Below are positions 3,612-60,643 of a stretch of DNA of 64,000 bases, one piece after another. Numbering within the stretch: position 1 is the first letter of the stretch; every line of letters begins with the position of its first letter. The notes under the pieces are model-generated. The model did not search any database, was not told the DNA's origin, and saw only the letters and a program-made list of their open reading frames with translations. The position numbers and the translations under genes are program-made. Source of the stretch: Candidatus Nomurabacteria bacterium (GTDB lineage: Bacteria; Patescibacteriota; Minisyncoccia; Phycocordibacterales; UBA5272); NCBI GenBank assembly GCA_037134695.1, contig JBAXLU010000001.1, forward strand, positions 11,551 through 75,550, given 5' to 3'.

Positions 3612-4267
3612 TGTATAATTCCACAACTATGATGCAAATCACCACAGCGCCACGCGCACCAAAAGAAACAAAGAAAGATGGTTTTATTCCAGCTGTATAT
3701 TACGGCGCACAACAGGCCTCAACTCCTATTTTTATAGATTTTATTGAATTTAAGAAGGTTTTAGCAGACGCTGGTGAATCAAGTTCAATTACTCTTATTA
3801 CAGAGCATGGTAACGAAGTTGCTATGATTCAAGATGTTCAGCTTGATCCAGTAAAGGGTAACGCTGTGCATGCAGACTTTTACATTCTTAAAAAGGGACA
3901 AAAAGTACACGTTAAAACCCCAATTATTTTTGTTGGAGAGTCACAAGCTGTTAAAGAAGGTGGTGTGCTTGTAAAAGTAATGTATGAACTTTCTGTTGAA
4001 GGAGATCCAACTAAACTTCCTCATGAGTTCTCTGTAGATATTTCTGCTCTTGTTAATAAAGATAGTGTTATTCATGTAAAGGATTTGATTCTTCCAGCAG
4101 GTGTTGAGCTTTATCATGTAGATCCTCTAGATGCTGTTGTTTCTATTTCAGTTGCTCAGGAAGAAATTGCGATAGATGCTCCAGTTGCTGATTTATCAAC
4201 TATTGAAGTTGAAGCTAAAGGTAAGAAAGAAGGCGACGCGGAAGAAGGTGGAACAGACGCAGAATAA
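3611..4267 (+). CDS. rplY: 50S ribosomal protein L25 / general stress protein Ctc (long form)
   Basis: 218-aa ORF; N-terminus APRAPKETKKDGFIPAVYYG is typical L25/Ctc; acidic tail partly encoded by an ACGCAGAA/ACGCGGAAG repeat unit (4236-4275). Confidence 0.8.
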   Translation: MYNSTTMMQITTAPRAPKETKKDGFIPAVYYGAQQASTPIFIDFIEFKKVLADAGESSSITLITEHGNEVAMIQDVQLDPVKGNAVHADFYILKKGQKVHVKTPIIFVGESQAVKEGGVLVKVMYELSVEGDPTKLPHEFSVDISALVNKDSVIHVKDLILPAGVELYHVDPLDAVVSISVAQEEIAIDAPVADLSTIEVEAKGKKEGDAEEGGTDAE

Positions 4268-4293
4268 CGCGGAAAAATTCAAAAAAATACTAA

Positions 4294-5879: not shown

Positions 5880-6086
5880 ATGAAAGCAGATATTCACCCA
5901 ACATATTATACAAACGCTACAGCAACTTGTGCTTGTGGTGCCACTTATAGTGTTGGTTCAACACAAGAAAAAATAGAAGTTGAAATCTGTCAGGCTTGCC
6001 ATCCATTCTATACAGGACAGGATAAAGTACTTGACTCTACCGGCCGCGTTGATAAGTTTAAGAAGAGAATGGCTGCTAAAAAGTAG
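5880..6086 (+). CDS. rpmE: 50S ribosomal protein L31
   Basis: 68-aa ORF MKADIHPTYY...C..C....CHPFYTG, canonical L31. Confidence 0.9.
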   Translation: MKADIHPTYYTNATATCACGATYSVGSTQEKIEVEICQACHPFYTGQDKVLDSTGRVDKFKKRMAAKK

Positions 6087-6257
6087 TCCATCTACTTTGT
6101 TGTGGAGCCTCTTTCGCTCGTCATCGTACTATTAAGTACGTCTCCTCGCTCACTTCTCCACGCCTCGTATCTGAACCATTTTTAGCAGCCATTATGGCTT
6201 GCTTTTTGGTATACTACAAAGCATCTAACTTTCAACTTTACGAACTTTATAAACTTT

Positions 6258-8660: not shown

Positions 8661-8696
8661 TACTAATAACTAATAACCAATAACTAAAAACTACCC
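8661..8696 (+). promoter_or_regulatory. conserved AACTAnTAACCAnTAACTA...AACTACCC leader motif upstream of rpsB
   Basis: TACTAATAACTAATAACCAATAACTAAAAACTACCC; near-identical motifs precede tsf, typA and the 22371 gene. Confidence 0.4.
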
Positions 8697-9445: not shown

Positions 9446-9483
9446 TTTACTATCAACTATTAACCAGTAACTATCAACTACCC
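9446..9483 (+). promoter_or_regulatory. conserved leader motif upstream of tsf
   Basis: TTTACTATCAACTATTAACCAGTAACTATCAACTACCC ends 2 nt before the ATG; no GGAGG Shine-Dalgarno. Confidence 0.4.
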
Positions 9484-10565: not shown

Positions 10566-10604
10566 TAAATAATGGTGGTAGCCTTATTTATTGCCGATTC
10601 AACA

Positions 10605-10744
10605 AATCAGCCTGCGCTGATTTGTGGCAGATTCGAATGGGCGCAGTGATGTTTCGCTAGCAAGCGAAACCACGAGCGGCGGGCTGCGAGTCTTGTGAGC
10701 GACGGCGAACAAGAACTTGTAGCCGAATCTGAGAAGCGGCTCCA
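10605..10744 (+). repeat. tRNA-adjacent structured element, copy A (ends with a 21-nt exact copy of the tRNA-Thr 3' end)
   Basis: ~80% identical to 53211-53342; hairpin AATCAGC-CTGC-GCTGATT, conserved core GGCAGATTCGAATGGGC..CTAGCAAG..AAACCACGAGCGGCGGGCTGCGAGT, second hairpin TCTTGT..ACAAGA, then CTTGTAGCC + CGAATCTGAGAAGCGGCTCCA (= 10545-10565). Confidence 0.55.
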
Positions 10745-12890: not shown

Positions 12891-13754
12891 ATGGCCGTTC
12901 ATAAATTTCATTTTTATGATAAAATGAAATTTATGAACGGCCATCTCCACCCCATTACTCTCGCAGTTGCACGTATTTCCGACATCTTTTCCAAGATGGG
13001 TTTTGATACAGTTGATGGTCCAGAGCTAGAAGATGAATGGCACAATTTTGATGCACTAAACGTTCCAGCTGATCACCCAGCGAGAGATATGCAGGATACC
13101 TTCTTCATCAGAATGGGTACTGATGAAGCGCAGACTAACGCAGAACGGACGCAGAAGGTCGCAGAAGGAATACAAAGGACAGGCATTAATAAATTCGGTG
13201 AACCCATGGGCTATGTTCTTCGTACACATACTAGTAACATGCAGATCCGCACTATGGAAAAATATACAGCGGAAGGTAAAGAATTGCCTATTGCTATTTG
13301 TTGCCCGGGAAAAGTTTTTCGCAATGAAGCAACAGACGCAACCCACGAAGCACAATTTCATCAAATAGAAATGTTATATGTTGCAAAAGATGCATCACTA
13401 GCTATGATGATAGGTGTAATTGAAAAGTTTTTCTCAGAATTTTTTGGAACAGATTTAGTGATTAGACTTCGTTCAAGTTATTTTCCATTCGTTGAGCCGG
13501 GCAATGAAGTGGATATGCAATGTTTTAAGTGTAAAGGTAGTGGTTGTAATATTTGTAAACAAACTGGTTGGATAGAAATAGGTGGTGCTGGAATGGTGCA
13601 TCCAAAAGTATTAGAAGCAGGAGGAATTAATCCAGCTGATTATCGTGGTTTTGCTTTTGGTTGTGGTATAGACAGAATGGTAATGCTTAAATATGGAATT
13701 GAAGATGTTCGTCTTTTGTATAATGGAGATTTAAGAGTGGTCAATCAATTTTAA
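12891..13754 (+). CDS. pheS: phenylalanine--tRNA ligase alpha subunit
   Basis: 287-aa ORF; class II motifs (LRTHTS, FRNEATDATHEAQFHQIEM, GAGMVHPKVL, GFAFGCGIDRM); alternative start at 12927; carries an in-frame short-repeat insertion at 13127-13185. Confidence 0.85.
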   Translation: MAVHKFHFYDKMKFMNGHLHPITLAVARISDIFSKMGFDTVDGPELEDEWHNFDALNVPADHPARDMQDTFFIRMGTDEAQTNAERTQKVAEGIQRTGINKFGEPMGYVLRTHTSNMQIRTMEKYTAEGKELPIAICCPGKVFRNEATDATHEAQFHQIEMLYVAKDASLAMMIGVIEKFFSEFFGTDLVIRLRSSYFPFVEPGNEVDMQCFKCKGSGCNICKQTGWIEIGGAGMVHPKVLEAGGINPADYRGFAFGCGIDRMVMLKYGIEDVRLLYNGDLRVVNQF

Positions 13755-13756
13755 TT

Positions 13757-15721
13757 ATGAAATTTTCTAAAGCGTGGTTACAAGATTATATTGTCGAGAC
13801 ACTTCCAGAAGATGGTGTGATTTCAGAGGCTTTTAATAAAAAATCTTTTGAAGTTGAAGAAACGCGGACTATCGCGGAACAAACGCAGAATGACGCGGAA
13901 GGAATACAAACTGACGATTATAAGGATACGGTTTTTGATATTAAAGTTTTACCAAATAGAGCCCACGATGCATTAGGCCACAGGGGTATGGCCCGTGAAC
14001 TTTGTGCAGATTTTGGTTTTACATTTAAGGAAGATGAGAGAATAAATAAAAACGAATCTTTTTTTGACTCAACTATTCCGGCTCCAGCAGTTTCAATAGA
14101 AAATGGTGAAAAATGTACTCGTTTTATGGGAATAAGAATAGATGGTGTAATGGTCACAGAAAGCCCAAAATGGCTCAGAGAAAGGCTTGAATCTATAGGA
14201 CAGCGAAGTATTAACAATATTGTTGATATCACTAACTATGTGCAGTTTTCGCTCAATAAGCCTATGCATGCTTATGACACAAGGAGTATTAAGGGTATTT
14301 TGGGTGCGCGCGTAGCGCGCACTGGTGAGATGCTAGTTACTTTGGATGAAAAGTCACTTAATCTTGATACTCAAACTCTTGTAATTGTAGATGATGAAAA
14401 AGTTCTAGGGCTAGCTGGAATAAAAGGAGGAAAATTTAGTGGTATACAATCTGATACAACAAGTGTTATTTTAGAGAGTGCAAATTTCGAACCAACCCTT
14501 ATCCGCAAGACTTCACAGAAATATGATTTAAGAACAGATGCTTCAAAACGTTTTGAAAATGGAATTGCAAACTCTTTAATTGAAGAAGGTTTATATATGA
14601 CCGCAAATCTAATTAAAGAATTATGTGCTGATGCGAAGGTTTCACTTGTAACAGATATTTATCCAAAGGTAGATGAGATATTTTCATTATCTGTTTCACT
14701 TGATGAAATTAATGCAATATTAGGTACAAAATATTCTAGGGAAGAAGTAGAAGAAACATTTAAAAAACTTTTATTTAAATTTACGACAAAAGGAAATGTT
14801 TATACAGTTGAAGTTCCATCTGAAAGACTAGATATACGAATTAAAGAAGATGTCACAGAAGAAGTGGGACGTATTATTGGATATGACAAACTTATACCAA
14901 CTCTTCCTGTTTTAAATCGCGTAGGTCTTCCTCATAAGAGAATGTTTTATGAAAATAAAATAAGAGAAATTTTAGTGAGAAATGGTTTCTCTGAAGTCAT
15001 GACTTATACTTTTGGTGATCAGGGTGAGGTGGAACTTGTAAAAGGATTGGCTCTAGATAAAGAAAAACTTCGTGACAGTTTAGGTAATGGTATATTAAAT
15101 TCTCTATCATTAAATCTTTACAACGCACCACTTCTCGGTGAAAAAACAATTAAGATTTTTGAAATTGGGAATGTTTTTGGAAAAGATACAGAGACAAGAC
15201 ATTTATCTCTTGCAATTGATGACGGTGCGAAGAAAAGTAATTTCACAGATGGAGTCGATATGATATTAGTTGAAATTAAACGCACTTTAGAATTGCCATC
15301 ACTTGAATGTACAACAGTTTCAACTAAACCTTATGTTATTGAAATTGATTTTGATACAATGATTGCATCACTTCCGGAGCCTACAAATTATGAAGCGCCT
15401 ACATTCACGTCTTTACCTTTCGTTAATTACAAATCAGTCTCGTCTTATCCGTTTATTGCCCGTGATATTGCTATGTGGGTACCTGCTGTTACAACATGGG
15501 AGAGTATCAATAATCTTTGTGCTGAAGTACGGAATACTCTTGTTACTCGTGTTGATCTTTTTGATACTTTCACGAAAGAAATAGAGGGCATAAGAAAAAC
15601 TTCTTTCGCATTTCGCTTAGTTTTTCAAAGTTATGAAAAGACATTAACAGATGAAGAGGTGAATGAAATGATGGAAGCTTATTATAAAGTTTTTAAGGAA
15701 AAAGGTTACGAGATTCGCTAA
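13757..15721 (+). CDS. pheT: phenylalanine--tRNA ligase beta subunit (short form lacking N-terminal OB domain)
   Basis: 654-aa ORF directly after pheS; B3/B4 and B5 and C-terminal anticodon-binding-like regions recognisable; in-frame short-repeat insertion at 13866-13912. Confidence 0.8.
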   Translation: MKFSKAWLQDYIVETLPEDGVISEAFNKKSFEVEETRTIAEQTQNDAEGIQTDDYKDTVFDIKVLPNRAHDALGHRGMARELCADFGFTFKEDERINKNESFFDSTIPAPAVSIENGEKCTRFMGIRIDGVMVTESPKWLRERLESIGQRSINNIVDITNYVQFSLNKPMHAYDTRSIKGILGARVARTGEMLVTLDEKSLNLDTQTLVIVDDEKVLGLAGIKGGKFSGIQSDTTSVILESANFEPTLIRKTSQKYDLRTDASKRFENGIANSLIEEGLYMTANLIKELCADAKVSLVTDIYPKVDEIFSLSVSLDEINAILGTKYSREEVEETFKKLLFKFTTKGNVYTVEVPSERLDIRIKEDVTEEVGRIIGYDKLIPTLPVLNRVGLPHKRMFYENKIREILVRNGFSEVMTYTFGDQGEVELVKGLALDKEKLRDSLGNGILNSLSLNLYNAPLLGEKTIKIFEIGNVFGKDTETRHLSLAIDDGAKKSNFTDGVDMILVEIKRTLELPSLECTTVSTKPYVIEIDFDTMIASLPEPTNYEAPTFTSLPFVNYKSVSSYPFIARDIAMWVPAVTTWESINNLCAEVRNTLVTRVDLFDTFTKEIEGIRKTSFAFRLVFQSYEKTLTDEEVNEMMEAYYKVFKEKGYEIR

Positions 15722-19580: not shown

Positions 19581-21752
<2,172 letters not shown>

Positions 21753-21756
21753 AAAT

Positions 21757-21790
21757 AAAAATCACCGCATATGCGGTGATTTTTGTTTTT
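21757..21790. terminator. bidirectional terminator between gyrB and a hemerythrin gene
   Basis: perfect palindrome AAAATCACCGCAT|ATGCGGTGATTTT flanked by A/T runs; a near-copy sits at 22885-22921. Confidence 0.6.
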
Positions 21791-22214
21791 ACTTCAAGCC
21801 GTGCTCATTAAAAAATAGAGAGTACTTTTTATCCATTGAAAGAATATGTTCAAATAGCCAGTTTCCAGCAAATAAACCACTTTCTTTTAGTGTGTCTTTT
21901 AAATCATAATTTCTATTACTTACCTTAGAAATTAATTCAGCAGATTTTACTCTAAAGTGATCATGTGATTTTATATGATCTTCCATATGTGGAACATTGT
22001 ATTTTTCAAAATACTCTTCTTCTGTACCTAAATGATACTTCGCATAATCACCCAATCTATTGATGGCGAGTACCGCTTCTGCTTGTGTAAATTTTATTTT
22101 TCCTTCAGATAATTCTAATAAATTGTTACATAAATTAAAAAACTCTTTATGTTGATTGTCTATTATTTCAATTCCAACAGAGTATTCTTCTGTCCAAATA
22201 AGTTCTTCGTACAT
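21789..22214 (-). CDS. bacteriohemerythrin-like protein, paralog 1
   Basis: 141-aa ORF; WTEEYSVGIEIIDNQHKEFF plus downstream H..E, HF, H..D metal ligands; ~85% identical to 22921-23346. Confidence 0.7.
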   Translation of the reverse strand: MYEELIWTEEYSVGIEIIDNQHKEFFNLCNNLLELSEGKIKFTQAEAVLAINRLGDYAKYHLGTEEEYFEKYNVPHMEDHIKSHDHFRVKSAELISKVSNRNYDLKDTLKESGLFAGNWLFEHILSMDKKYSLFFNEHGLK

Positions 22215-22316: not shown

Positions 22317-22370
22317 TTTGTATTAAACTATAATCTATTAACCAGTAACTACTAACTGGTAACTATTCTC
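22317..22370 (+). promoter_or_regulatory. conserved leader motif upstream of the SLOG-like gene
   Basis: TTTGTATTAAACTATAATCTATTAACCAGTAACTACTAACTGGTAACTATTCTC directly before the ATG; same motif as the rpsB, tsf and typA leaders. Confidence 0.4.
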
Positions 22371-22884: not shown

Positions 22885-22921
22885 AATAAAAATCACCGCA
22901 TATACGGTGATTTTTATTTTT
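22885..22921. terminator. bidirectional terminator (near-copy of 21757-21790)
   Basis: AAAAATCACCG-CATATA-CGGTGATTTTTATTTTTT. Confidence 0.5.
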
Positions 22922-23346
22922 TACTTCAAACCTTGTTCATTAAAAAACGGAGAGTATTTTTTATCCATAGACATAATATGTTCAAATAGCCAGTTTCCAG
23001 CAAATAAACCACTTTCCTTGAGTGTATCTTTTAAATCGTAATCTTTATTACTTACTTTAGCAATTAATTCAGAAGATTTTATTTTAAAATGATTATGTGC
23101 TTTTATATGATCTTCCATATTTTGTACATTATATTTTTCAAAATATTCCTCTTCTGTTCCTAAATGATATTTTGCGTAATCACCTAATCTGTTAATAGCA
23201 AGGACAGCTTCTGCTTGTGTAAATTTTGTTTTTCCTTCAGCTAATTCTAATAAATTGTTACATAAATTAAAAAACTCTTTATGTTGATTATCTATTATTT
23301 CAATACCAACAGAATATTCTTCTGTCCAAATAAGTTCATCGTACAT
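22921..23346 (-). CDS. bacteriohemerythrin-like protein, paralog 2
   Basis: 141-aa ORF, same motifs as paralog 1; part of a ~520-bp direct duplication. Confidence 0.7.
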   Translation of the reverse strand: MYDELIWTEEYSVGIEIIDNQHKEFFNLCNNLLELAEGKTKFTQAEAVLAINRLGDYAKYHLGTEEEYFEKYNVQNMEDHIKAHNHFKIKSSELIAKVSNKDYDLKDTLKESGLFAGNWLFEHIMSMDKKYSPFFNEQGLK

Positions 23347-28175: not shown

Positions 28176-28410
28176 AAATGCTAGAAAAAATGTGTGTGGT
28201 ACAATATAGCGCGAGCCTACCGGCTCGCGCTTGGTTTATGTTAAATATTGGAGAGCTGGCAGAGCGGTCTAATGCATTACATTGCTCCCGATTTCTTAGA
28301 TTGCTCCCGACTTTTTAATTTGTAACCAAATTGTTAAAGTCGCAGTCCTGGTGAGGGTACTCAGTCTGTTGAAATCGCAGTCCAGAACAAAACAGGTTTT
28401 GTATTTATAT

Positions 28411-28503: not shown

Positions 28504-28700
28504 TGTAAATAGTTAGTTGTTTTGTTTCGGCGATTAGTAAATCGAACCGAGAGGAAGAAAGGTGGTAAGGTGAAAGCCTTCACGGGTTCGAATTCCATAC
28601 CATCTACTTTACGCGGGAGAAAATTGTTGTATCGTATGTAAGCTATAGGAAGGTAACTTTTATCTGTATTTATTTGCTTCTTTGCCTCTAATAGCATAGT

Positions 28701-36486: not shown

Positions 36487-36590
36487 CGACCTTCTTCGTT
36501 AAAGTGAATATTTTTTCGTCACTGTACTATTAAGTACACCTCCTCAAAAATCTTCACTTTGCCTCGAATCTCATTCAAGTCTGTAAGTTC
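36487..36590. repeat. 3'-UTR repeat family E, copy after iscU
   Basis: conserved CGTCACTGTACTATTAAGTACACCTCCTC and CCTCGAATCTCATTC blocks inside an AAAGTGAA/TTCACTTT inverted repeat; relatives at 6070-6192, 42617-42735, 47095-47215, 49032-49172, 60495-60625. Confidence 0.55.
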
Positions 36591-40779: not shown

Positions 40780-40828
40780 CTGTATTTAAACTATTAACCA
40801 GTAGCTAGTAACTACCAACCATTCAACC
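40780..40828 (+). promoter_or_regulatory. conserved leader motif upstream of typA
   Basis: CTGTATTTAAACTATTAACCAGTAGCTAGTAACTACCAACCATTCAACC immediately before the ATG. Confidence 0.4.
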
Positions 40829-45238: not shown

Positions 45239-45384
45239 TCTAAACTGGATAATCTGTAAAAGAAAATGCCACCCGTTAGGGTGGCATTCTCATGTGTTCT
45301 TCATCTATAAGCCGAGTTCTGTATTTGTATAGACATTTATCTTGTCTCTACATTGCTGTAAAGATCTAGCGACACTCTCCCAAC

Positions 45385-45515
45385 GCTCCGCATTGGGCGC
45401 AGAAGTACGCAGACTTAACGCTGACTGACGCAGAAGAATGCAATTTGTATTTTTCTGCGACCTTCTGCGTTCGTTCAGCGATGTTCTGCGCTTAATGCGA
45501 AGCATTAAGAGCACG
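45385..45515. repeat. imperfect ~110-bp palindrome built from ACGCAGAAG/ACGCGGAAG units (family D)
   Basis: left arm GCGCAGAAGTACGCAGACTTAACGCTGACTGACGCAGAAGAATGC, right arm is its near reverse complement; same units occur in frame in rplY, pheS, pheT and gyrB; ORFs 45305-45592(-) and 45438-45698(+) here are probably not genes. Confidence 0.6.
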
Positions 45516-45762
45516 GTCTTGCACACACGTATGTATTTAGCCGTTTCAGCCGGACTAAACCGGATCGTTTCTGTTCGCAACACAATGGTCACCCATGATG
45601 GGAATTACCCACTACGCTTGTTATGTAAACATAACTATGTGCTCGGACTTTCCTCACGATATTACTATCGCGCGTCTACCCAACAAAGAACTTTATAACG
45701 ATACTACATTTTTACTAGTATGTCAAAGTTTTTATTTAGTATATGTTATAATATATATTAAT

Positions 45763-49032: not shown

Positions 49033-49172
49033 TTCCAAAAATGCTTCATCTACTTTGTTACGGGTCCCTGCTCGCTCGTCAATGTACTATTAAGTACTTC
49101 TTCTTTCAAAATTAACTTCGTCCAAGACGTGAACCTACTGGTTCAGCCTCGTATCTAAAGCATTTTTGGAAC
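49032..49172. repeat. 3'-UTR repeat family E, copy after lepA, bounded by 15-bp inverted repeats
   Basis: GTTCCAAAAATGCTT...CATCTACTTTGTT...CTCGCTCGTCAATGTACTATTAAGTAC...CCTCGTATCTAAAGCATTTTTGGAAC. Confidence 0.6.
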
Positions 49173-49283
49173 TACTTAAGTTCGAGATCTGAATAATATT
49201 AAAGCTATTATTATTCACCTAATATCTGAATCATTTTTAGTCCGATGGTAAGCCTAAAATATTTAGTGATATACTTTTAATAT

Positions 49284-50280: not shown

Positions 50281-50521
50281 AAATGCAGAACTAACGCGGA
50301 ATAATACAAAAAATAAAGGGTGACTCCTACGAAGCCACCCTGTATTTTCCATAAACTAGTAACCAATAACTATTTAATTAAGGCGATTAGTGAAAAACCA
50401 ACCATACCAACAATAGCTAGTATTGAAATTATGGCCCAGATCTTATGAAGAAGTTTTCTATTTTTTGATGTGAAAAGCATATATGTTTTTTTTGATATGT
50501 TAGAATAATACTAACAATAAT

Positions 50522-50937: not shown

Positions 50938-51312
50938 TTTGTGCGGGATAGGAGACGTTATACTATCGAAAACAAAATGATTACATTTTGTTTTAGAAAC
51001 CCACGGTTTCTAACGTTCATGAGCACACTCACTGTTTCCCGACCCATTCCCAGTTCGATTTTCACGTAAAGTGGTTTAGACCACTTTACTCTATCCCACA
51101 CAAAAAAACTCACTTTGTCCTTGTTTTGTTGTGCGGGATAGGAGACGCTTCGCTATCGAACACAAAATGATTACATTTTGTTTTAGAAACCCACGGTTTC
51201 TAACGTTCGTGATTACACTCACTGTTTTCCTCCACGGGAAACTCACGTTTCCCGACCCCTTCCTAGTTCGATTCTCCTATCCCGCACGTTCAAATAAGCT
51301 AAAGCTTTTTTG
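50938..51312. repeat. two tandem ~185-bp units each beginning with a copy of the tRNA-Gly 3' end
   Basis: TGTGCGGGATAGGAGA at 50941, 51131 and inside the tRNA at 51311; units share AACAAAATGATTACATTTTGTTTTAGAAACCCACGGTTTCTAACGTT; unit 2 ends in a 20-bp perfect inverted repeat with the tRNA 3' end (51268-51287 vs 51312-51331). Confidence 0.6.
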
Positions 51313-51740: not shown

Positions 51741-51841
51741 GATAAGTATAGAATACAAAAAGCAACATCATATGATGTTGCTTTTTGTATTCTGTTGATA
51801 TGTATATATACTTAATCCTAAGATATGGTATATATACATAT

Positions 51842-52477
51842 ATGGGAAAACCAAAAATAAAAGAAGATATTTTATATAAATTAAAATTACTGAGAGAGTC
51901 AGGTAAATCTATTGCGGAAATAGTTAATGAATTAGGTTTGGGTAAGGGAACAGTTGGCAAATATTGTAGAGATATAAAATTAAATAAAAAAGCAAAACAA
52001 GTTTTAGAGACAAAAAGGTATCCATCAAGAAGAGTTTCATTAGAACAAAAATTAGAATCTAGAGAACATGCATCTAAAATTATTAAATCGTTAAACGATA
52101 GAGATATGTTTCTTATTTTTAGTGCTTTATATTGGGGCGAGGGAACCAAGAGTGAGCTTAATATAATCAATGGTGACCATAGATTAATAGATTTTTTCGT
52201 TAAAGGTCTAATATCTTTAGGGATTGAAAAGAAACGTATTAAAATCTCTATTCGTTTTTATTCAGGTCAGAATAAAAAAGAGCTTATTTCATTTTGGTTA
52301 AAATTACTTGCTTTAGATGAGTCAAATATAGTAGGCTTTGAAAAGGTGGAAGGAAATGGGAAAACAAATAAACTAATACATGGCATGTGTAGGGTAAGAG
52401 TACAAAAAAGTTCTTATTATCACAAACTAGTTACTAGTGCTATAGAAATAATATCCTCCGGTAGTTCAAATGGATAG
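51842..52477 (+). CDS. hypothetical HTH-domain protein (possibly mobile-element related)
   Basis: likely start MGKPKIKE at 51842 (ORF track starts 51785); N-terminal HTH (SGKSIAEIVNELGLGKGTVGKY); 3' end overlaps a tRNA-like structure; sits between tRNA-Gly repeats and a putative tRNA-Arg. Confidence 0.35.
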   Translation: MGKPKIKEDILYKLKLLRESGKSIAEIVNELGLGKGTVGKYCRDIKLNKKAKQVLETKRYPSRRVSLEQKLESREHASKIIKSLNDRDMFLIFSALYWGEGTKSELNIINGDHRLIDFFVKGLISLGIEKKRIKISIRFYSGQNKKELISFWLKLLALDESNIVGFEKVEGNGKTNKLIHGMCRVRVQKSSYYHKLVTSAIEIISSGSSNG

Positions 52478-52525
52478 AACAGAAGCGTCCTAAGCTTTTA
52501 ATGTGGGTTCAATTCCTGCCCGGGG
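52453..52525 (+). tRNA. putative tRNA-Arg (anticodon CCU), low quality
   Basis: acceptor CCTCCGG/CCGGGGG (one G-U), D-arm GTTC-AAATGGATA-GAAC, anticodon arm GAAGC-GTCCTAA-GCTTT, T-arm GTGGG-TTCAATT-CCTGC (two G-U); G32 is atypical. Confidence 0.4.
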
Positions 52526-52550
52526 GACAATGTGGTGATATACTAAATAT

Positions 52551-52889: not shown

Positions 52890-53084
52890 AATATATCTTT
52901 TGTTTTAGCTGTTTTTATGATAGGATATTAAGACCTTTTAAATAGTTAAGAGGGAAGAGTTTAGAGAAATAAAGTAGATAAAACATGCTGGGATAGCTCA
53001 GTTGGCAAAAGAATTATTTGACATTTGCCGGCAAATGCTAAATTGGCATAAAGATAAAAACGTTTAGTGAGAAAAAGAATATTT

Positions 53085-53157
53085 GCTGGGATAGCTCAGT
53101 TGGTAGAGCATTTGCCTGAAGAGCAAGGGGTCGGCAGTTCGAGCCTGCCTCCCAGCA
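53085..53157 (+). tRNA. tRNA-Phe (anticodon GAA)
   Basis: GCTGGGA-TA-GCTC-AGTTGGTA-GAGC-A-TTTGC-CTGAAGA-GCAAG-GGGTC-GGCAG-TTCGAGC-CTGCC-TCCCAGC-A. Confidence 0.85.
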
Positions 53158-53164
53158 CAAAAAA

Positions 53165-53199
53165 CAAAAACGAAGTCACATGACTTCGTTTTTGTATTT
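53165..53199 (+). terminator. intrinsic terminator after tRNA-Phe
   Basis: AAAAACGAAGTC-ACAT-GACTTCGTTTTT then GTATTTT. Confidence 0.7.
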
Positions 53200-53210
53200 T
53201 GTGCTGGGAG

Positions 53211-53342
53211 AGTACGACGCCTGCGCGTCGTACGTGTAGGTTCGAATGGGCCTAAGTGTGCTTTCACTAGCAAGAAAAACCACGAGCGGCGGGCTGCGAG
53301 TTCGTCGAGTGGCGACGAGATGAAACTTGTAGCCGAGCCTGA
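53211..53342 (+). repeat. tRNA-adjacent structured element, copy B
   Basis: hairpin GTACGACGC-CTGC-GCGTCGTAC, core GTAGGTTCGAATGGGCC..CTAGCAAG..AAACCACGAGCGGCGGGCTGCGAGT, hairpin TCGTCG-AGTGG-CGACGA, then AACTTGTAGCCGAGCCTGA; ~80% identical to copy A with compensatory changes in both hairpins. Confidence 0.55.
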
Positions 53343-53471
53343 TTAGTATTGTTTCGACTTTTCTTCACCTTTTCCTATTTTTGTGGTATTGTAATAATGC
53401 GTACAGTTCAATAGAGTAAATAGTCTTAAAATGACTTAATTTATCAGTCGTTTTCAGCATAGATATTCTAT

Positions 53472-53750
53472 GTGGGATACATGACTGATAGCTTTGACTA
53501 TTGGACTGTACGCATCCACTGGGGTGCCTATTTTGTTTTTATACTAAAAATTAAATTCATGAAAATTAAAATTGAGAGTATTGTTGAGGATTTAGATTAT
53601 GGCTTTAAAAGAGCCTTAGAGGAATCGGTCATTGAGATTTTACCATCTATTTCAGTTGACCGAAATATTTTATTTAAAGCTTTTATTAGATCTGTTGGTC
53701 GTAAGTTTAATACATGGGAAGAAGTTAGAGATGATTATATTCAAAAATAA
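53472..53750 (+). CDS. hypothetical protein
   Basis: 92-aa ORF, no motif. Confidence 0.3.
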   Translation: MGYMTDSFDYWTVRIHWGAYFVFILKIKFMKIKIESIVEDLDYGFKRALEESVIEILPSISVDRNILFKAFIRSVGRKFNTWEEVRDDYIQK

Positions 53751-56101: not shown

Positions 56102-56141
56102 TTTGAAATGGTTTAGAGTTTTCTATCGAATACACAAATAC

Positions 56142-56176
56142 AAAAAACCAGTCGTAAGACTGGTTTTTTGTATTTC
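56142..56176 (+). terminator. intrinsic terminator after the TPR gene
   Basis: AACCAGTC-GTAA-GACTGGTT followed by TTTTGTATTT. Confidence 0.7.
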
Positions 56177-56995: not shown

Positions 56996-57133
56996 TCGAA
57001 AGTTCATCAAGTTTGAAGTCGAAAGTTTATAAAGTTAGTAAAGTTGAAAGTCATACAAAATACATTGGCGACACCTTCGGTGTCGCCAATGTATTTACTT
57101 TATGAACTTTAAAACTTTATAAACTTTCAACTA
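56996..57133. repeat. AT-motif palindromic element (family B) around a bidirectional terminator
   Basis: GAAAGTTTATAAAGTTAGTAAAGTTGAAAGT ... ATTGGCGACACC-TTCG-GTGTCGCCAAT ... ACTTTATGAACTTTAAAACTTTATAAACTTTCAAC. Confidence 0.55.
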
Positions 57134-59828: not shown

Positions 59829-59898
59829 TTGCAGACAGTAGATTTTAGAAATCACCGCTGAGTGGGATAAATTAGATTTTAGATTAGATACAAATACA

Positions 59899-59936
59899 AC
59901 AAGAGTGGCACCTACGGTGCCACTCTTGTTGTATTT
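59899..59936 (+). terminator. intrinsic terminator after the SET gene
   Basis: ACAAGAGTGGCACC-TAC-GGTGCCACTCTTGT then TGTATTT. Confidence 0.7.
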
Positions 59937-60287: not shown

Positions 60288-60643
60288 TCGCATTTGTGAA
60301 CTTAGAGAAAGCATCCACTCCCATGGATGCTTTTTCTTTTTTTTTATTCCAAAACTATTTCATTTACTGCGTTAGGAAAAGTTTTTACTCCTGGTTGTAC
60401 GTCTTGTACATCTTAGTCGTAAAAACTTTCTCTGCCTTGTATCTAAAACAGTTTTGGAACAAAAATATTGATTAAAAAACTATTCCATCCCAGCCAGAGG
60501 CTGGTCAGCCTCTGGCTGATACTTTTTGTCGTTACGAAATTTTTGTCAGTCAATGTAGGTCTACTACATCTCCATCTAAAAATTTCTAGACTCCTCGTAT
60601 CTGAAACAATTTTTTGCCAAAGAGGCTTCTTCACCAAAGATGA

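What the first reader, a model, noticed from the sequence alone, without database searches (positions are those of the whole stretch)
52987..53342. tRNA-Phe locus: 20-nt copy of the tRNA 5' end 80 nt upstream, plus element copy B downstream
Seen directly: TGCTGGGATAGCTCAGTTGG (52986-53005) duplicates the first 19-20 nt of tRNA-Phe (53085-53157). A palindrome (GCATTTGCCGGCAAATGC) lies in between. Downstream of the tRNA and its terminator is element copy B (53211-53342). Its last nucleotides (CCGAGCCTG) again mimic the tRNA's T-loop (TTCGAGCCTG). The tRNA therefore has fragment duplications on both sides. This mirrors the tRNA-Thr, tRNA-Gly and tRNA-Ser loci in this window. It suggests repeated recombination or integration events at tRNA genes, or a tRNA-anchored functional module.
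Basis: seen in the sequence. Interest (0 to 1): 0.6.

Follow-up and report, generated by a model that had tools for sequence, protein, structure and literature searches.

The report
tRNA-anchored structured RNA cassette locus
The tRNA-Phe gene of this tiny-genome (CPR/Nomurabacteria) bacterium has a dead duplicate of its own start upstream and, downstream, one copy of a previously undescribed folded RNA cassette that sits behind many tRNA genes and is built from copies of the neighbouring tRNA's 3' end.

Summary
The 20-mer TGCTGGGATAGCTCAGTTGG occurs exactly twice (52986-53005 and 53084-103; 0 expected). Element B is a true relative of the element behind tRNA-Thr.

Downstream part: element B (53198-53352) belongs to a ~150-nt structured family found only in Paceibacteria/Nomurabacteria.
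- Of 22 copies, 21 lie on the tRNA strand just 3' of a tRNA gene or of another copy, behind at least 9 tRNA identities.
- 96.8% of base-pair cells are paired and 30 of 45 pairs covary. G.U outnumbers A.C 46 to 4. There is no Rfam match.
- Each copy starts with the reverse complement of its own tRNA's 3' end and ends with a direct copy of it.
- At least five unrelated cargo sequences use this scaffold, and occupancy differs between related genomes. It behaves as a mobile cassette. No integrase, transposase or reverse transcriptase was found.

Upstream part: the 20-mer is the remnant of an old ~100-bp tandem duplication of leader plus tRNA 5' half. The anticodon arm of the dead copy became a 16-bp palindrome inside a conserved promoter-like block. 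The same architecture occurs at a tRNA-Cys elsewhere, and one relative lacks it.

The function of the cassette RNA is unknown. This is probably a new variant of tRNA-gene-targeted elements or tRNA mimics.

The parts
52914..52929 (+). Extended -10-type promoter motif TTTATGATAGGATATT ('P_up').
   Evidence: There are exactly two perfect copies in the window: 80 nt 5' of tRNA-Thr and 73 nt 5' of the Phe 5' fragment. The 30-nt block around it is 93% invariant in 4 orthologues. It is also present in L020, L021 and L022. Promoter function is inferred.
52941..52985 (+). Leader of the dead upstream repeat unit (copy 1).
   Evidence: It aligns with the leader directly 5' of the tRNA (53040-53084) in the window, L013, L014 and L016. 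Only 32% of its columns are invariant.
52986..53005 (+). 5' fragment: T plus tRNA-Phe positions 1-19. It is the remnant of the upstream repeat unit.
   Evidence: Identity to the tRNA is 20/20. It has decayed by 5 substitutions in L014/L016 and by 2 in L022, while the tRNA itself stays invariant.
53006..53021 (+). A 16-nt segment that replaces tRNA positions 20-24 in the dead copy. TTGACA lies at 53018-53023.
   Evidence: Read from the sequence and the alignment. The analogous 28-nt replacement occurs at L010 tRNA-Cys.
53022..53039 (+). 16-nt perfect palindrome CATTTGCC|GGCAAATG plus CT. It equals tRNA positions 25-32 followed by the reverse complement of positions 23-32, that is, a collapsed anticodon arm.
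   Evidence: The block is 88% invariant in 4 orthologues and identical in L021 and L022. TGCTAAATT (53036-53044) resembles an extended -10 element.
53040..53084 (+). Leader of the live repeat unit (copy 2).
53085..53157 (+). tRNA-Phe(GAA) gene. CCA is not encoded.
   Evidence: It is 100% invariant in the 4 close orthologues (window, L013, L014, L016); the more distant relatives L020, L021 and L022 differ in sequence.
53149..53210 (+). Long inverted repeat with 31-nt arms and one mismatch: tRNA 3' end plus trailer, then its reverse complement. The core 53164-53195 is an intrinsic-terminator-like hairpin.
   Evidence: The arms change together and stay perfect in L013 and L014. This hairpin explains the spurious miRNA-model hits.
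53200..53211 (+). X': reverse complement of the tRNA-Phe acceptor 3' strand plus discriminator and trailer. It marks the 5' end of the cassette.
   Evidence: X' is present only where a cassette is present; it is absent at the empty sites of L022 and L013.
53212..53233 (+). P1 hairpin of the scaffold: GTACGACG-CCTGCG-CGTCGTAC.
   Evidence: 8 of its 9 pairs show compensatory changes across 19 copies.
53237..53244 (+). PT stem, 5' strand (TAGGTTCG). It is the reverse complement of the tRNA T-stem 3' strand plus T-loop, and pairs with 53334-53341.
   Evidence: 5 of the 7 pairs covary with the T-stem of the local tRNA.
53245..53333 (+). Family-1 cargo: a three-way junction with P2-P3 (loop AGCA), P4 (CUGCGAGU/ACUUGUAG with two invariant G.U pairs) and conserved joining strands.
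   Evidence: Covariance-model hit of 140.9 bits, E 7e-34. Covariation. No Rfam match.
53334..53341 (+). PT stem, 3' strand, also X_dup: a direct copy of the tRNA-Phe T-loop/T-stem (CGAGCCTG). The acceptor part is lost in this lineage.
10589..10742 (+). Sister family-1 cassette behind tRNA-Thr. It ends in a 21-nt exact copy of the tRNA-Thr 3' end, including CCA.
50938..51288 (-). Two tandem family-2 cassettes behind tRNA-Gly(CCC). They use the same scaffold with a different cargo.
   Evidence: The orthologous site is empty in L013, carries family 3 in L014/L016 and family 1 twice in L002.

Best explanation
The locus is the tRNA-Phe transcription unit of a Candidatus Nomurabacteria (Paceibacteria, CPR) chromosome. 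It carries two independent products of rearrangement templated by the tRNA.

(1) Downstream cassette.
- Shown: element B is one copy of a mobile, ~150-nt structured cassette that is read on the tRNA strand.
- Shown: the cassette has a scaffold and a cargo. The scaffold is made from the neighbouring tRNA's own 3' end. Its order is an inverted copy (X'), a small hairpin (P1), the inverted T-stem/T-loop, the cargo, and finally a direct copy of the T-loop-to-3'-end segment (X_dup).
- Shown: X' pairs either with the tRNA's real 3' end, which extends the terminator into a ~30-bp hairpin, or with X_dup. The second pairing closes the cassette in an acceptor/T-stem-like helix, a mimic of the tRNA 'top half'.
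- Shown: at least five unrelated cargoes use this slot. Cassettes are gained, lost, swapped and tandemly amplified by crossover between the X repeats.
- Inferred: cassettes enter by recombination in the T-loop/3'-end region, which regenerates the tRNA.
- Inferred: X' is kept matched to the local tRNA by hairpin-templated correction.
- Inferred: the RNA arises by read-through from the tRNA promoter and is released or stabilised by tRNA-processing enzymes (RNase P and the 3' end machinery) or by RNase III acting on the long hairpin.
- Unknown: what the cargo does. Its conserved unpaired nucleotides suggest a protein- or ligand-binding core or a catalytic core.

(2) Upstream fragment.
- Shown: the 20-nt fragment is the start of a dead copy left by an old ~100-bp tandem duplication of leader plus tRNA positions 1 to about 43.
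- Shown: the anticodon arm of the dead copy collapsed into a loopless palindrome that extends outward.
- Inferred: this is the signature of hairpin (quasipalindrome) template switching.
- Inferred: the palindrome now lies within a conserved, promoter-like block that probably drives or regulates the live tRNA.
For: Family and structure:
- 22 covariance-model hits in held loci.
- 96.8% of cells are paired, against 38-44% in slid controls. 30 of 45 pairs are compensatory. The covariation score is 0.569 against at most 0.10 in controls.
- G.U 46 against A.C 4.
- No Rfam family matches. No phage, plasmid or viral-contig match.

Anchoring to tRNA genes:
- 21 of 22 hits have a same-strand tRNA 17-47 nt upstream, or follow another copy.
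- The tRNAs include Thr, Phe, Ser (several anticodons), Gly (two), Ile, Pro, Lys, Arg and Leu.

Mimicry of the tRNA end:
- Inverted and direct copies of each local tRNA's 3' end flank each cassette.
- The PT stem covaries with the local T-stem.

Modularity and turnover:
- Five cargo families share one scaffold.
- tRNA-Gly(CCC) site: empty in L013, family 2 twice in the window, family 3 in L014/L016, family 1 twice in L002.
- tRNA-Phe site: family 1 in the window, L013, L014, L016 and L021; family 2 in L020; empty in L022.
- Two identical 232-nt units sit behind L006 tRNA-Ser(GCU).

Constraint in place:
- Phe orthologues keep the helices through compensatory changes while the flanks are only 11-32% invariant.

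Upstream side:
- The repeat units align over leader plus tRNA 5' part in 4 genomes, and at L010 tRNA-Cys.
- The promoter motif lies at a tRNA-like distance from the fragment.
- The fragment decays while the palindrome block stays 88% invariant.
- L020 lacks the duplication.
Against: - No expression data exist. The hairpin between tRNA and cassette looks like a terminator, so transcription of the cassette is unproven.
- The Phe copy lacks the acceptor 3' strand, so it cannot itself close a tRNA-like acceptor stem.
- Many X_dup copies are decayed, which argues against strict selection for the mimic.
- No enzyme that could move cassettes was identified.
- G.T wobble is also tolerated in single-stranded DNA, so the folded molecule could be DNA.
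- The proposed promoter has a 15-nt spacer and was not called by the consensus scan.
- Sampling is small: about 20 loci from a few metagenomes.
Confidence: 0.55

Rival explanations
1. These are scars (attL/attR) of classical integrase-mediated integration of phages, plasmids or islands into the tRNA T-loop. The interior was later deleted, leaving non-autonomous, CIME-like mini-elements that a distant integrase can still recombine and stack.
For: - Direct repeats of the tRNA T-loop-to-3'-end segment flank the insert: 21 nt at Thr and 17-22 nt at Ile and Gly.
- The tRNA is regenerated.
- There are tandem arrays and empty sites.
- From my own knowledge, the T-loop is a known crossover sublocation for tyrosine integrases.
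Against: - The units are only 130-230 nt and carry a strongly covarying, strand-specific fold with conserved loops. Att scars would not have this.
- An inverted copy of the tRNA end (X') matched to each local tRNA is not a feature of att sites.
- No integrase was found among about 50 window proteins or in the annotated flanks of 10 loci.
- There is no match in viral contigs, phages or plasmids.
Confidence: 0.15
2. The cassettes are purely selfish DNA palindromic repeats, of the REP/REPIN, Rickettsia RPE or mitochondrial GC-cluster type. They fold as single-stranded DNA for a trans-acting transposase and have no RNA role. The GC-rich hairpins simply accumulate in the safe haven behind tRNA genes.
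For: - The elements are GC-rich (about 54%) in a 33% GC genome.
- There are many copies, arrays, decayed copies and differing occupancy between relatives.
- They have hairpin architecture with inverted termini.
Against: - Orthologous copies at the Phe locus keep all helices through compensatory changes over substantial divergence, while neighbouring spacer DNA is scrambled.
- Orientation is strictly the same as the tRNA in 21 of 22 copies.
- Two G.U pairs are invariant.
- No RAYT/Y1-like transposase was seen in the window.
Confidence: 0.2
3. The cassettes are ordinary host non-coding RNA genes or cis-acting tRNA 3'-processing or termination signals. They are not mobile. Their similarity to the tRNA end comes from local duplication and concerted evolution.
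For: - Structure is conserved in vertically inherited orthologues.
- The long hairpin that includes the tRNA 3' end changes together on both arms and stays perfect.
- Long palindromic terminators are common across this genome.
Against: - The same cargo, and even the same P1, occurs behind unrelated tRNAs in different genomes. Different cargoes occupy the same orthologous site, and some sites are empty.
- Tandem arrays and truncated copies are frequent.
Confidence: 0.12
4. The 5' fragment and the 3' identity are chance similarities or an assembly artefact.
For: None beyond the short length of the 3' match in the window (8 nt).
Against: - The 5' fragment matches 20/20 with 0 expected.
- The locus is identical in an independent assembly.
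- The architecture is conserved in six other genomes.
- A tRNA-Cys locus shows the same 5' architecture.
Confidence: 0.01

Closest known systems
tRNA-gene-targeted integrative elements and their non-autonomous derivatives (CIMEs; tandem 'accretion' at tRNA 3' ends). Cited from my own knowledge.
   Same: - Insertion is at the 3' part of a tRNA gene with the breakpoint in the T-loop.
- The tRNA is regenerated.
- The displaced 3' end is left as a direct repeat.
- Tandem stacking occurs and occupancy differs between relatives.
   Different: - The units are 130-230 nt, with no integrase anywhere near.
- They carry an inverted copy of the tRNA end and a conserved, covarying, strand-specific fold.
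- Several unrelated cargoes share one scaffold.
tRNA mimics and tRNA-linked non-coding RNAs: viral 3' tRNA-like structures, MALAT1 mascRNA, bacterial YrlA, tRNA-snoRNA or tRNA-miRNA dicistrons, and engineered tRNA scaffolds. Cited from my own knowledge and the titles listed.
   Same: - In copies with an intact X_dup, an acceptor/T-stem-like closing helix flanks a foreign RNA domain.
- The element lies directly behind a tRNA on the same strand.
- This would allow release by tRNA-processing enzymes.
   Different: - The mimic copies the neighbouring tRNA, whichever it is.
- The insertion is in the T-loop position, not the anticodon arm.
- The tRNA covariance model does not detect it.
- The Phe copy has lost the acceptor strand.
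- Processing and aminoacylation are untested.
Palindromic mobile repeats of small AT-rich genomes: REP/REPIN, Rickettsia palindromic elements and mitochondrial GC clusters. Cited from my own knowledge.
   Same: They are GC-rich hairpin elements in an AT-rich reduced genome, with many copies and evidence of insertion and decay.
   Different: - They are strictly anchored to tRNA 3' ends in one orientation.
- Their termini are templated by the target tRNA.
- The fold is a complex three-way junction with invariant G.U pairs.
Quasipalindrome (hairpin) template-switch mutagenesis and duplication (Ripley model). Cited from my own knowledge. This applies to the 5' fragment.
   Same: - A natural stem-loop, the anticodon arm, was converted to a perfect palindrome that extends outward.
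- It sits at the junction of a tandem duplication.
- The same pattern occurs at tRNA-Phe and at tRNA-Cys.
   Different: The product has been retained for a long time, and its palindrome lies in a conserved promoter-like block, which suggests it was co-opted.

Membership tests
Integrase-type integrative element at a tRNA gene | A direct repeat of the tRNA 3' segment flanks the insert, and the tRNA is intact. | tested here: met
   Thr 21 nt; Gly 19-22 nt; Ile 17-18 nt; Phe 8-12 nt.
Integrase-type integrative element at a tRNA gene | A tyrosine or serine recombinase is encoded in or next to the element. | tested here: not met
   The units are 130-230 nt. No recombinase domain was found in about 50 window proteins or in the Pfam-annotated flanks of the loci.
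Integrase-type integrative element at a tRNA gene | An empty site exists in relatives. | tested here: met
   The Phe 3' site is empty in L022. The Gly(CCC) site is empty in L013. The four closest genomes show no empty site for Phe.
Integrase-type integrative element at a tRNA gene | Excision and circular forms exist. | not testable with these tools
   This needs read-level data.
tRNA-like structure / tRNA mimic RNA | An acceptor-like stem is stacked on a T-stem-like helix. | tested here: inconclusive
   The PT stem covaries in 5 of 7 pairs. Acceptor pairing between X' and X_dup is present in the Thr, Gly, Ile and family-2 copies. It is absent in the Phe copy, where X_dup is truncated.
tRNA-like structure / tRNA mimic RNA | Recognised by tRNA models. 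| tested here: not met
   ARAGORN and Rfam RF00005 hit only the true tRNAs.
tRNA-like structure / tRNA mimic RNA | Processed by RNase P or the CCA-adding enzyme, or aminoacylated. | not testable with these tools
   This needs biochemistry or RNA-seq.
Any curated RNA family (Rfam 15) | Scores against a family covariance model. | tested here: not met
   Nothing passes at gathering threshold over the window. Nothing relevant appears at E<=10 over 52900-53500 or at E<=0.1 over five loci carrying cargo families 1-5.
REP/REPIN- or MITE-like palindromic repeat | Multiple dispersed copies with inverted termini. | tested here: met
   Two family-1 copies lie in the window and 22 in held loci. X' and X_dup are inverted termini.
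REP/REPIN- or MITE-like palindromic repeat | A cognate transposase (RAYT or DDE type) is present in the genome. | tested here: inconclusive
   None was found in the 64-kb window. The whole genome was not available.
Tandem duplication with hairpin template switch (5' fragment) | The repeat includes flanking leader sequence, not only the tRNA. | tested here: met
   Local alignments of unit 1 against unit 2 in the window, L013, L014, L016 and L010 tRNA-Cys.
Tandem duplication with hairpin template switch (5' fragment) | An inverted segment derived from a natural stem-loop lies at the junction. | tested here: met
   Phe: positions 25-32 plus the reverse complement of 23-32. Cys: positions 24-34 plus the reverse complement of 21-34, with the anticodon GCA deleted.
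Intrinsic terminator (spacer hairpin) | A GC-containing stem-loop is followed by a T-run. | tested here: met
   53164-53195 with tail ATTTTGTG. Similar long palindromic terminators occur across the genome.

The most novel reading that the evidence does not exclude
CPR bacteria may harbour a previously unrecognised cassette system. In it, diverse small structured RNAs (at least five families) are carried on a scaffold that mimics the tRNA 'top half' and is templated from whichever tRNA gene they land behind. This would give them tRNA-style processing, stability or replication, as a natural 'tRNA scaffold' or 'genomic tag'. The cassettes would move between tRNA loci by an RNA- or hairpin-templated mechanism that needs no element-encoded recombinase. 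The family-1 cargo could be a new ribozyme or protein-binding RNA class.
Probability: 0.25. Interest if true: 0.85.

Novelty: new variant of a known kind. Interest (0 to 1): 0.62.

Why it matters
If the cassettes are expressed, they add several new structured RNA classes to organisms whose RNA biology is almost unexplored. They would also show a natural way of expressing or mobilising RNAs by borrowing the ends of a neighbouring tRNA. If they are selfish, they are a new kind of tRNA-targeted mini-element whose ends are copied from the target, and this points to an unknown insertion mechanism.

Either way they explain several observations:
- why tRNA loci in these genomes are hot spots of rearrangement, for example the strand flips of tRNA-Arg and the different cassettes at one site;
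- why tRNA fragments are scattered through the window.

For annotation, these elements account for GC-rich 'orphan' intergenic blocks and for spurious miRNA-like hits.

Tried and rejected
- Rfam gave only tRNAs, RNase P and spurious miRNA hits on the long hairpin. Searches were at gathering threshold over the window, at E<=10 over the locus and at E<=0.1 over five loci.
- Phage and plasmid BLAST gave only tRNA matches or none.
- Viral-contig pattern scans for families 1 and 3 found nothing real. The single family-3 hit, L018, lies inside a 1188-aa ORF and is a chance match.
- Literature searches found no description of such elements. The searches covered Patescibacteria/Parcubacteria with tRNA, tRNA-like, structured RNA and covariation. 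The library is limited, so absence is not proof.
- tmRNA or a split tmRNA was rejected: ARAGORN and Rfam are negative, and there are different acceptor stems and several copies.
- A hammerhead or other small self-cleaving ribozyme was considered. There is no Rfam hit and the junction sequences do not fit by eye. A new class cannot be excluded.
- A riboswitch for the downstream gene was rejected, because the downstream genes and distances are inconsistent.
- A D-armless mini-tRNA with a T-loop intron was rejected, because the P1 loops are 4-6 nt and not anticodon-like.
- A pseudoknot between the P1 loop and the cargo was rejected, because there is no compensating change in L004/L011.
- A search for 'cargo-less' scaffolds, meaning loopless palindromes centred on TTCGAA, found none.
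Full report
**Observation**

tRNA-Phe(GAA) lies at 53085-53157. The 20-mer TGCTGGGATAGCTCAGTTGG occurs exactly at 52986-53005 and 53084-53103. There is no further match at up to 3 mismatches and none in 100 shuffles. Between the two copies lies a 16-nt perfect palindrome, CATTTGCCGGCAAATG (53022-53037). Behind the tRNA come a terminator-like hairpin (53164-53195) and a GC-rich block. That block shares 76% identity and an identical 21-mer with a block behind tRNA-Thr. It ends in CGAGCCTG, the T-loop/T-stem of tRNA-Phe. The locus is identical in an independent assembly (L012).

**Context**

The window is a bacterial chromosome of about 33% GC carrying housekeeping genes: pheS/T, gyrB, nrdD, typA, lepA, thrS, mur genes, rpsB, tsf and RNase P RNA. 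The flanking protein is annotated in a Candidatus Nomurabacteria MAG. No integrase, transposase or reverse transcriptase domain was found in about 50 proteins.

**The downstream element is a structured family anchored to tRNA genes**

The 21-mer and a three-part pattern retrieved copies only from Paceibacterota/Nomurabacteria MAGs and a few metagenome contigs. None came from viral contigs. An alignment of 15 copies gave a consensus fold with these parts:
- the P1 hairpin;
- the 'PT' stem;
- a three-way junction with arms P2-P3 and P4.

In that alignment 26 of 45 pairs were compensatory.

A covariance model then found 22 copies in the held loci, two of them in the window. On 19 copies the numbers are as follows:
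- 96.8% of cells are paired, against 38-44% when partners are slid;
- 30 of 45 pairs have double changes;
- the covariation score is 0.569, against at most 0.10 in controls.

G.U cells outnumber A.C cells 46 to 4, and two G.U pairs are invariant. The strand that folds is therefore the tRNA-sense strand. Nothing in Rfam 15 matches.

Of the 22 copies, 21 have a tRNA gene on the same strand 17-47 nt upstream, or lie later in an array. The tRNAs are of many identities: Thr, Phe, Ser, Gly, Ile, Pro, Lys, Arg and Leu.

**Ends templated by the local tRNA**

- Every first-in-array copy begins with the reverse complement of its own tRNA's 3' end (X'). This often includes the discriminator and the locus-specific trailer.
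- Together with the spacer, X' forms an inverted repeat with arms up to 34 nt.
- After X' come P1 and then the reverse complement of the T-stem 3' strand plus T-loop. For tRNA-Gly this reads AATCGAA rather than TTCGATT, which shows it is an inverted copy.
- The cargo follows, and then a direct copy of the tRNA from about position 56-58 to the 3' end (X_dup). This copy is 21 nt at Thr and 17-22 nt at Ile and Gly, and is often decayed.
- X' is seen only where a cassette is present. The empty sites L022-Phe and L013-Gly have none.

In the window's Phe copy, X' is 53200-53211, P1 is 53212-53233, the PT stem pairs 53237-53244 with 53334-53341, and the cargo is 53245-53333. The acceptor part of X_dup is missing in the window, L013, L014 and L016; L021 keeps a longer X_dup (GAGCCTGGGTCCAAG) with an older acceptor allele.

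**Modularity and turnover**

At least five unrelated cargoes sit in the same scaffold slot:
- family 1;
- family 2 (window tRNA-Gly twice, L009, L011, L020);
- family 3, about 190 nt (L014/L016 Gly, L006 Ser, L010 Leu);
- family 4 (L010 Leu);
- family 5 (L006, and a remnant behind the window's tRNA-Ser).

For family 2 the predicted closing helix is X' paired with X_dup.

Orthologous sites differ between related genomes:
- Gly(CCC) is empty in L013, has family 2 twice in the window, family 3 in L014/L016 and family 1 twice in L002.
- Phe has family 1 in the window, L013, L014, L016 and L021 (L021 also has a family-3 remnant), family 2 in L020 and nothing in L022.
- Arg(CCT) has remnants in L013 and L021 and none in the window.

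Two identical 232-nt units behind L006 tRNA-Ser(GCU) show that arrays grow by crossover between the X repeats.

At the Phe locus the four closest genomes keep the cassette with compensatory changes in P1 and P4. On the two arms of the spacer hairpin, mirrored substitutions and indels occur. Meanwhile neighbouring spacer DNA is only 11-32% invariant. The element therefore both turns over and is constrained in place.

**The upstream fragment**

Local alignment shows that the 20-mer is part of a larger direct repeat. The repeat spans about 45-55 nt of leader plus the tRNA 5' part, in the window, L013, L014 and L016. In the dead upstream unit:
- positions 20-24 are replaced by 16 nt;
- the anticodon arm is collapsed to a loopless palindrome that continues outward as the reverse complement of positions 23-26.

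The same architecture occurs at tRNA-Cys of an unrelated contig. There it consists of a copy of positions 1-20, a 28-nt replacement, and CTACGGTTT|AAACCGTAGCGTTA with the anticodon GCA deleted. I read this as hairpin (quasipalindrome) template switching at the junction of a tandem duplication. That reading is an inference from established knowledge.

Supporting observations:
- An extended -10-type motif, TTTATGATAGGATATT, lies 80 nt before tRNA-Thr and 73 nt before the fragment. The fragment therefore marks the ancestral tRNA start.
- The fragment decays (5 substitutions in L014/L016 and 2 in L022), while the palindrome block is 88% invariant and P_up is 93% invariant.
- TTGACA, a 15-nt spacer and TGCTAAATT suggest a second promoter or an operator. 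This was not called by the consensus scan and is inferred.
- L020 lacks the duplication altogether, with P_up only 22 nt from the tRNA.

**Interpretation**

The best-supported reading has two parts:
- a downstream mobile structured cassette whose scaffold is copied from the target tRNA's 3' end and which is probably read as RNA on the tRNA strand;
- an independent, old tandem duplication upstream, whose palindrome has been co-opted.

How cassettes move, whether they are transcribed through the terminator-like hairpin, and what the cargoes do are not shown.

The rival explanations (see Rival explanations) each account for part of the data:
- Classical att scars do not explain the fold and the inverted copy.
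- Purely selfish DNA palindromes do not explain the constraint in place.
- Fixed host RNA genes do not explain the turnover.

**Comparison and novelty**

The closest known systems are:
- tRNA-targeted integrative elements and CIMEs, which share the target and the direct repeats but are not this small, do not lack an integrase, and have no such fold;
- tRNA mimics and tRNA-linked non-coding RNAs, which share the closing helix and position, but membership is untested or not met;
- palindromic repeats of reduced genomes.

I found no description in Rfam or in the papers searched. I rate this a new variant of known kinds. There is a one-in-four chance that it is a genuinely new cassette system based on tRNA top-half mimicry.

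Noticed in passing
window 45292-45691 (-); also 4229-4287, 13121-13179, 13855-13913, 21440-21477: The RNase P RNA (class A, 104 bits) carries an insertion of about 100 nt in the P12 region. The insertion is made of short ACGCAGAA-type repeats. The same repeat family occurs at four other places, some inside ORFs (families D5/D6).
   Followed up: no
window 28251-28400 and 28520-28620: Upstream of tRNA-Ser(GGA) lies an orphan 5' fragment of a different class II tRNA (GGAGAGCTGGCAGAGCGGTCTAATGCA), followed by short direct repeats (ATTGCTCCCGA twice, TCGCAGTCC twice). Downstream is a remnant of cargo family 5 (GGCGATTAGTAAATCG..CCGAGAGG), which ends in a T-arm-like GGGTTCGAATTCC.
   Followed up: partly
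window 52455-52528 versus L013-L017, L019, L020, L022 (tRNA-Arg CCT): The neighbouring tRNA-Arg(CCT) is on the + strand in the window and L021 but on the - strand in the other relatives. Family-1 remnants lie next to it in L013 and L021 but not in the window. tRNA loci seem to be rearrangement hot spots.
   Followed up: partly
window 21757-21784, 51750-51793, 56136-56175, 57058-57096, 59892-59936 and many loci: Terminators across this genome are unusually long perfect palindromes with arms of 14-22 nt. Many have the frame AATACAAAAAG...CTTTTTGTATT.
   Followed up: partly
window 21780-22079 and 22912-23211: A tandem duplication with a period of about 1.13 kb and 86% identity contains two hemerythrin-domain genes (21789-22214 and 22921-23346, - strand).
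   Followed up: no
window 8662-8692, 9449-9479, 22327-22357, 40783-40813, 50348-50378: A repeated motif ACTATTAACCAGTAACTA lies 40-170 nt upstream of gene starts (rpsB, tsf, typA and others). It may be a shared leader or promoter element.
   Followed up: no
window 6079-6183, 36516-36545, 49037-49238, 60426-60613; also L006 upstream of tRNA-Ser(CGA): Another intergenic repeat family is present (TCGTCA.TGTACTATTAAGTAC..., CCTCGTATCTGAAAC.TTTTT). It was not characterised.
   Followed up: no
L003 11300-11560: This is the only family-1 copy without a detectable tRNA upstream. A tRNA 3' end remnant (..ACGGCGCACCA) is present, but the rest is not recognisable. It may be a disrupted or intron-containing tRNA.
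   Followed up: partly
L011 3575-7299 (-): Here tRNA-Ile directly follows a 16S rRNA gene and is followed by a family-1 and then a family-2 cassette. Cassettes therefore also sit inside rRNA-tRNA transcription units.
   Followed up: no
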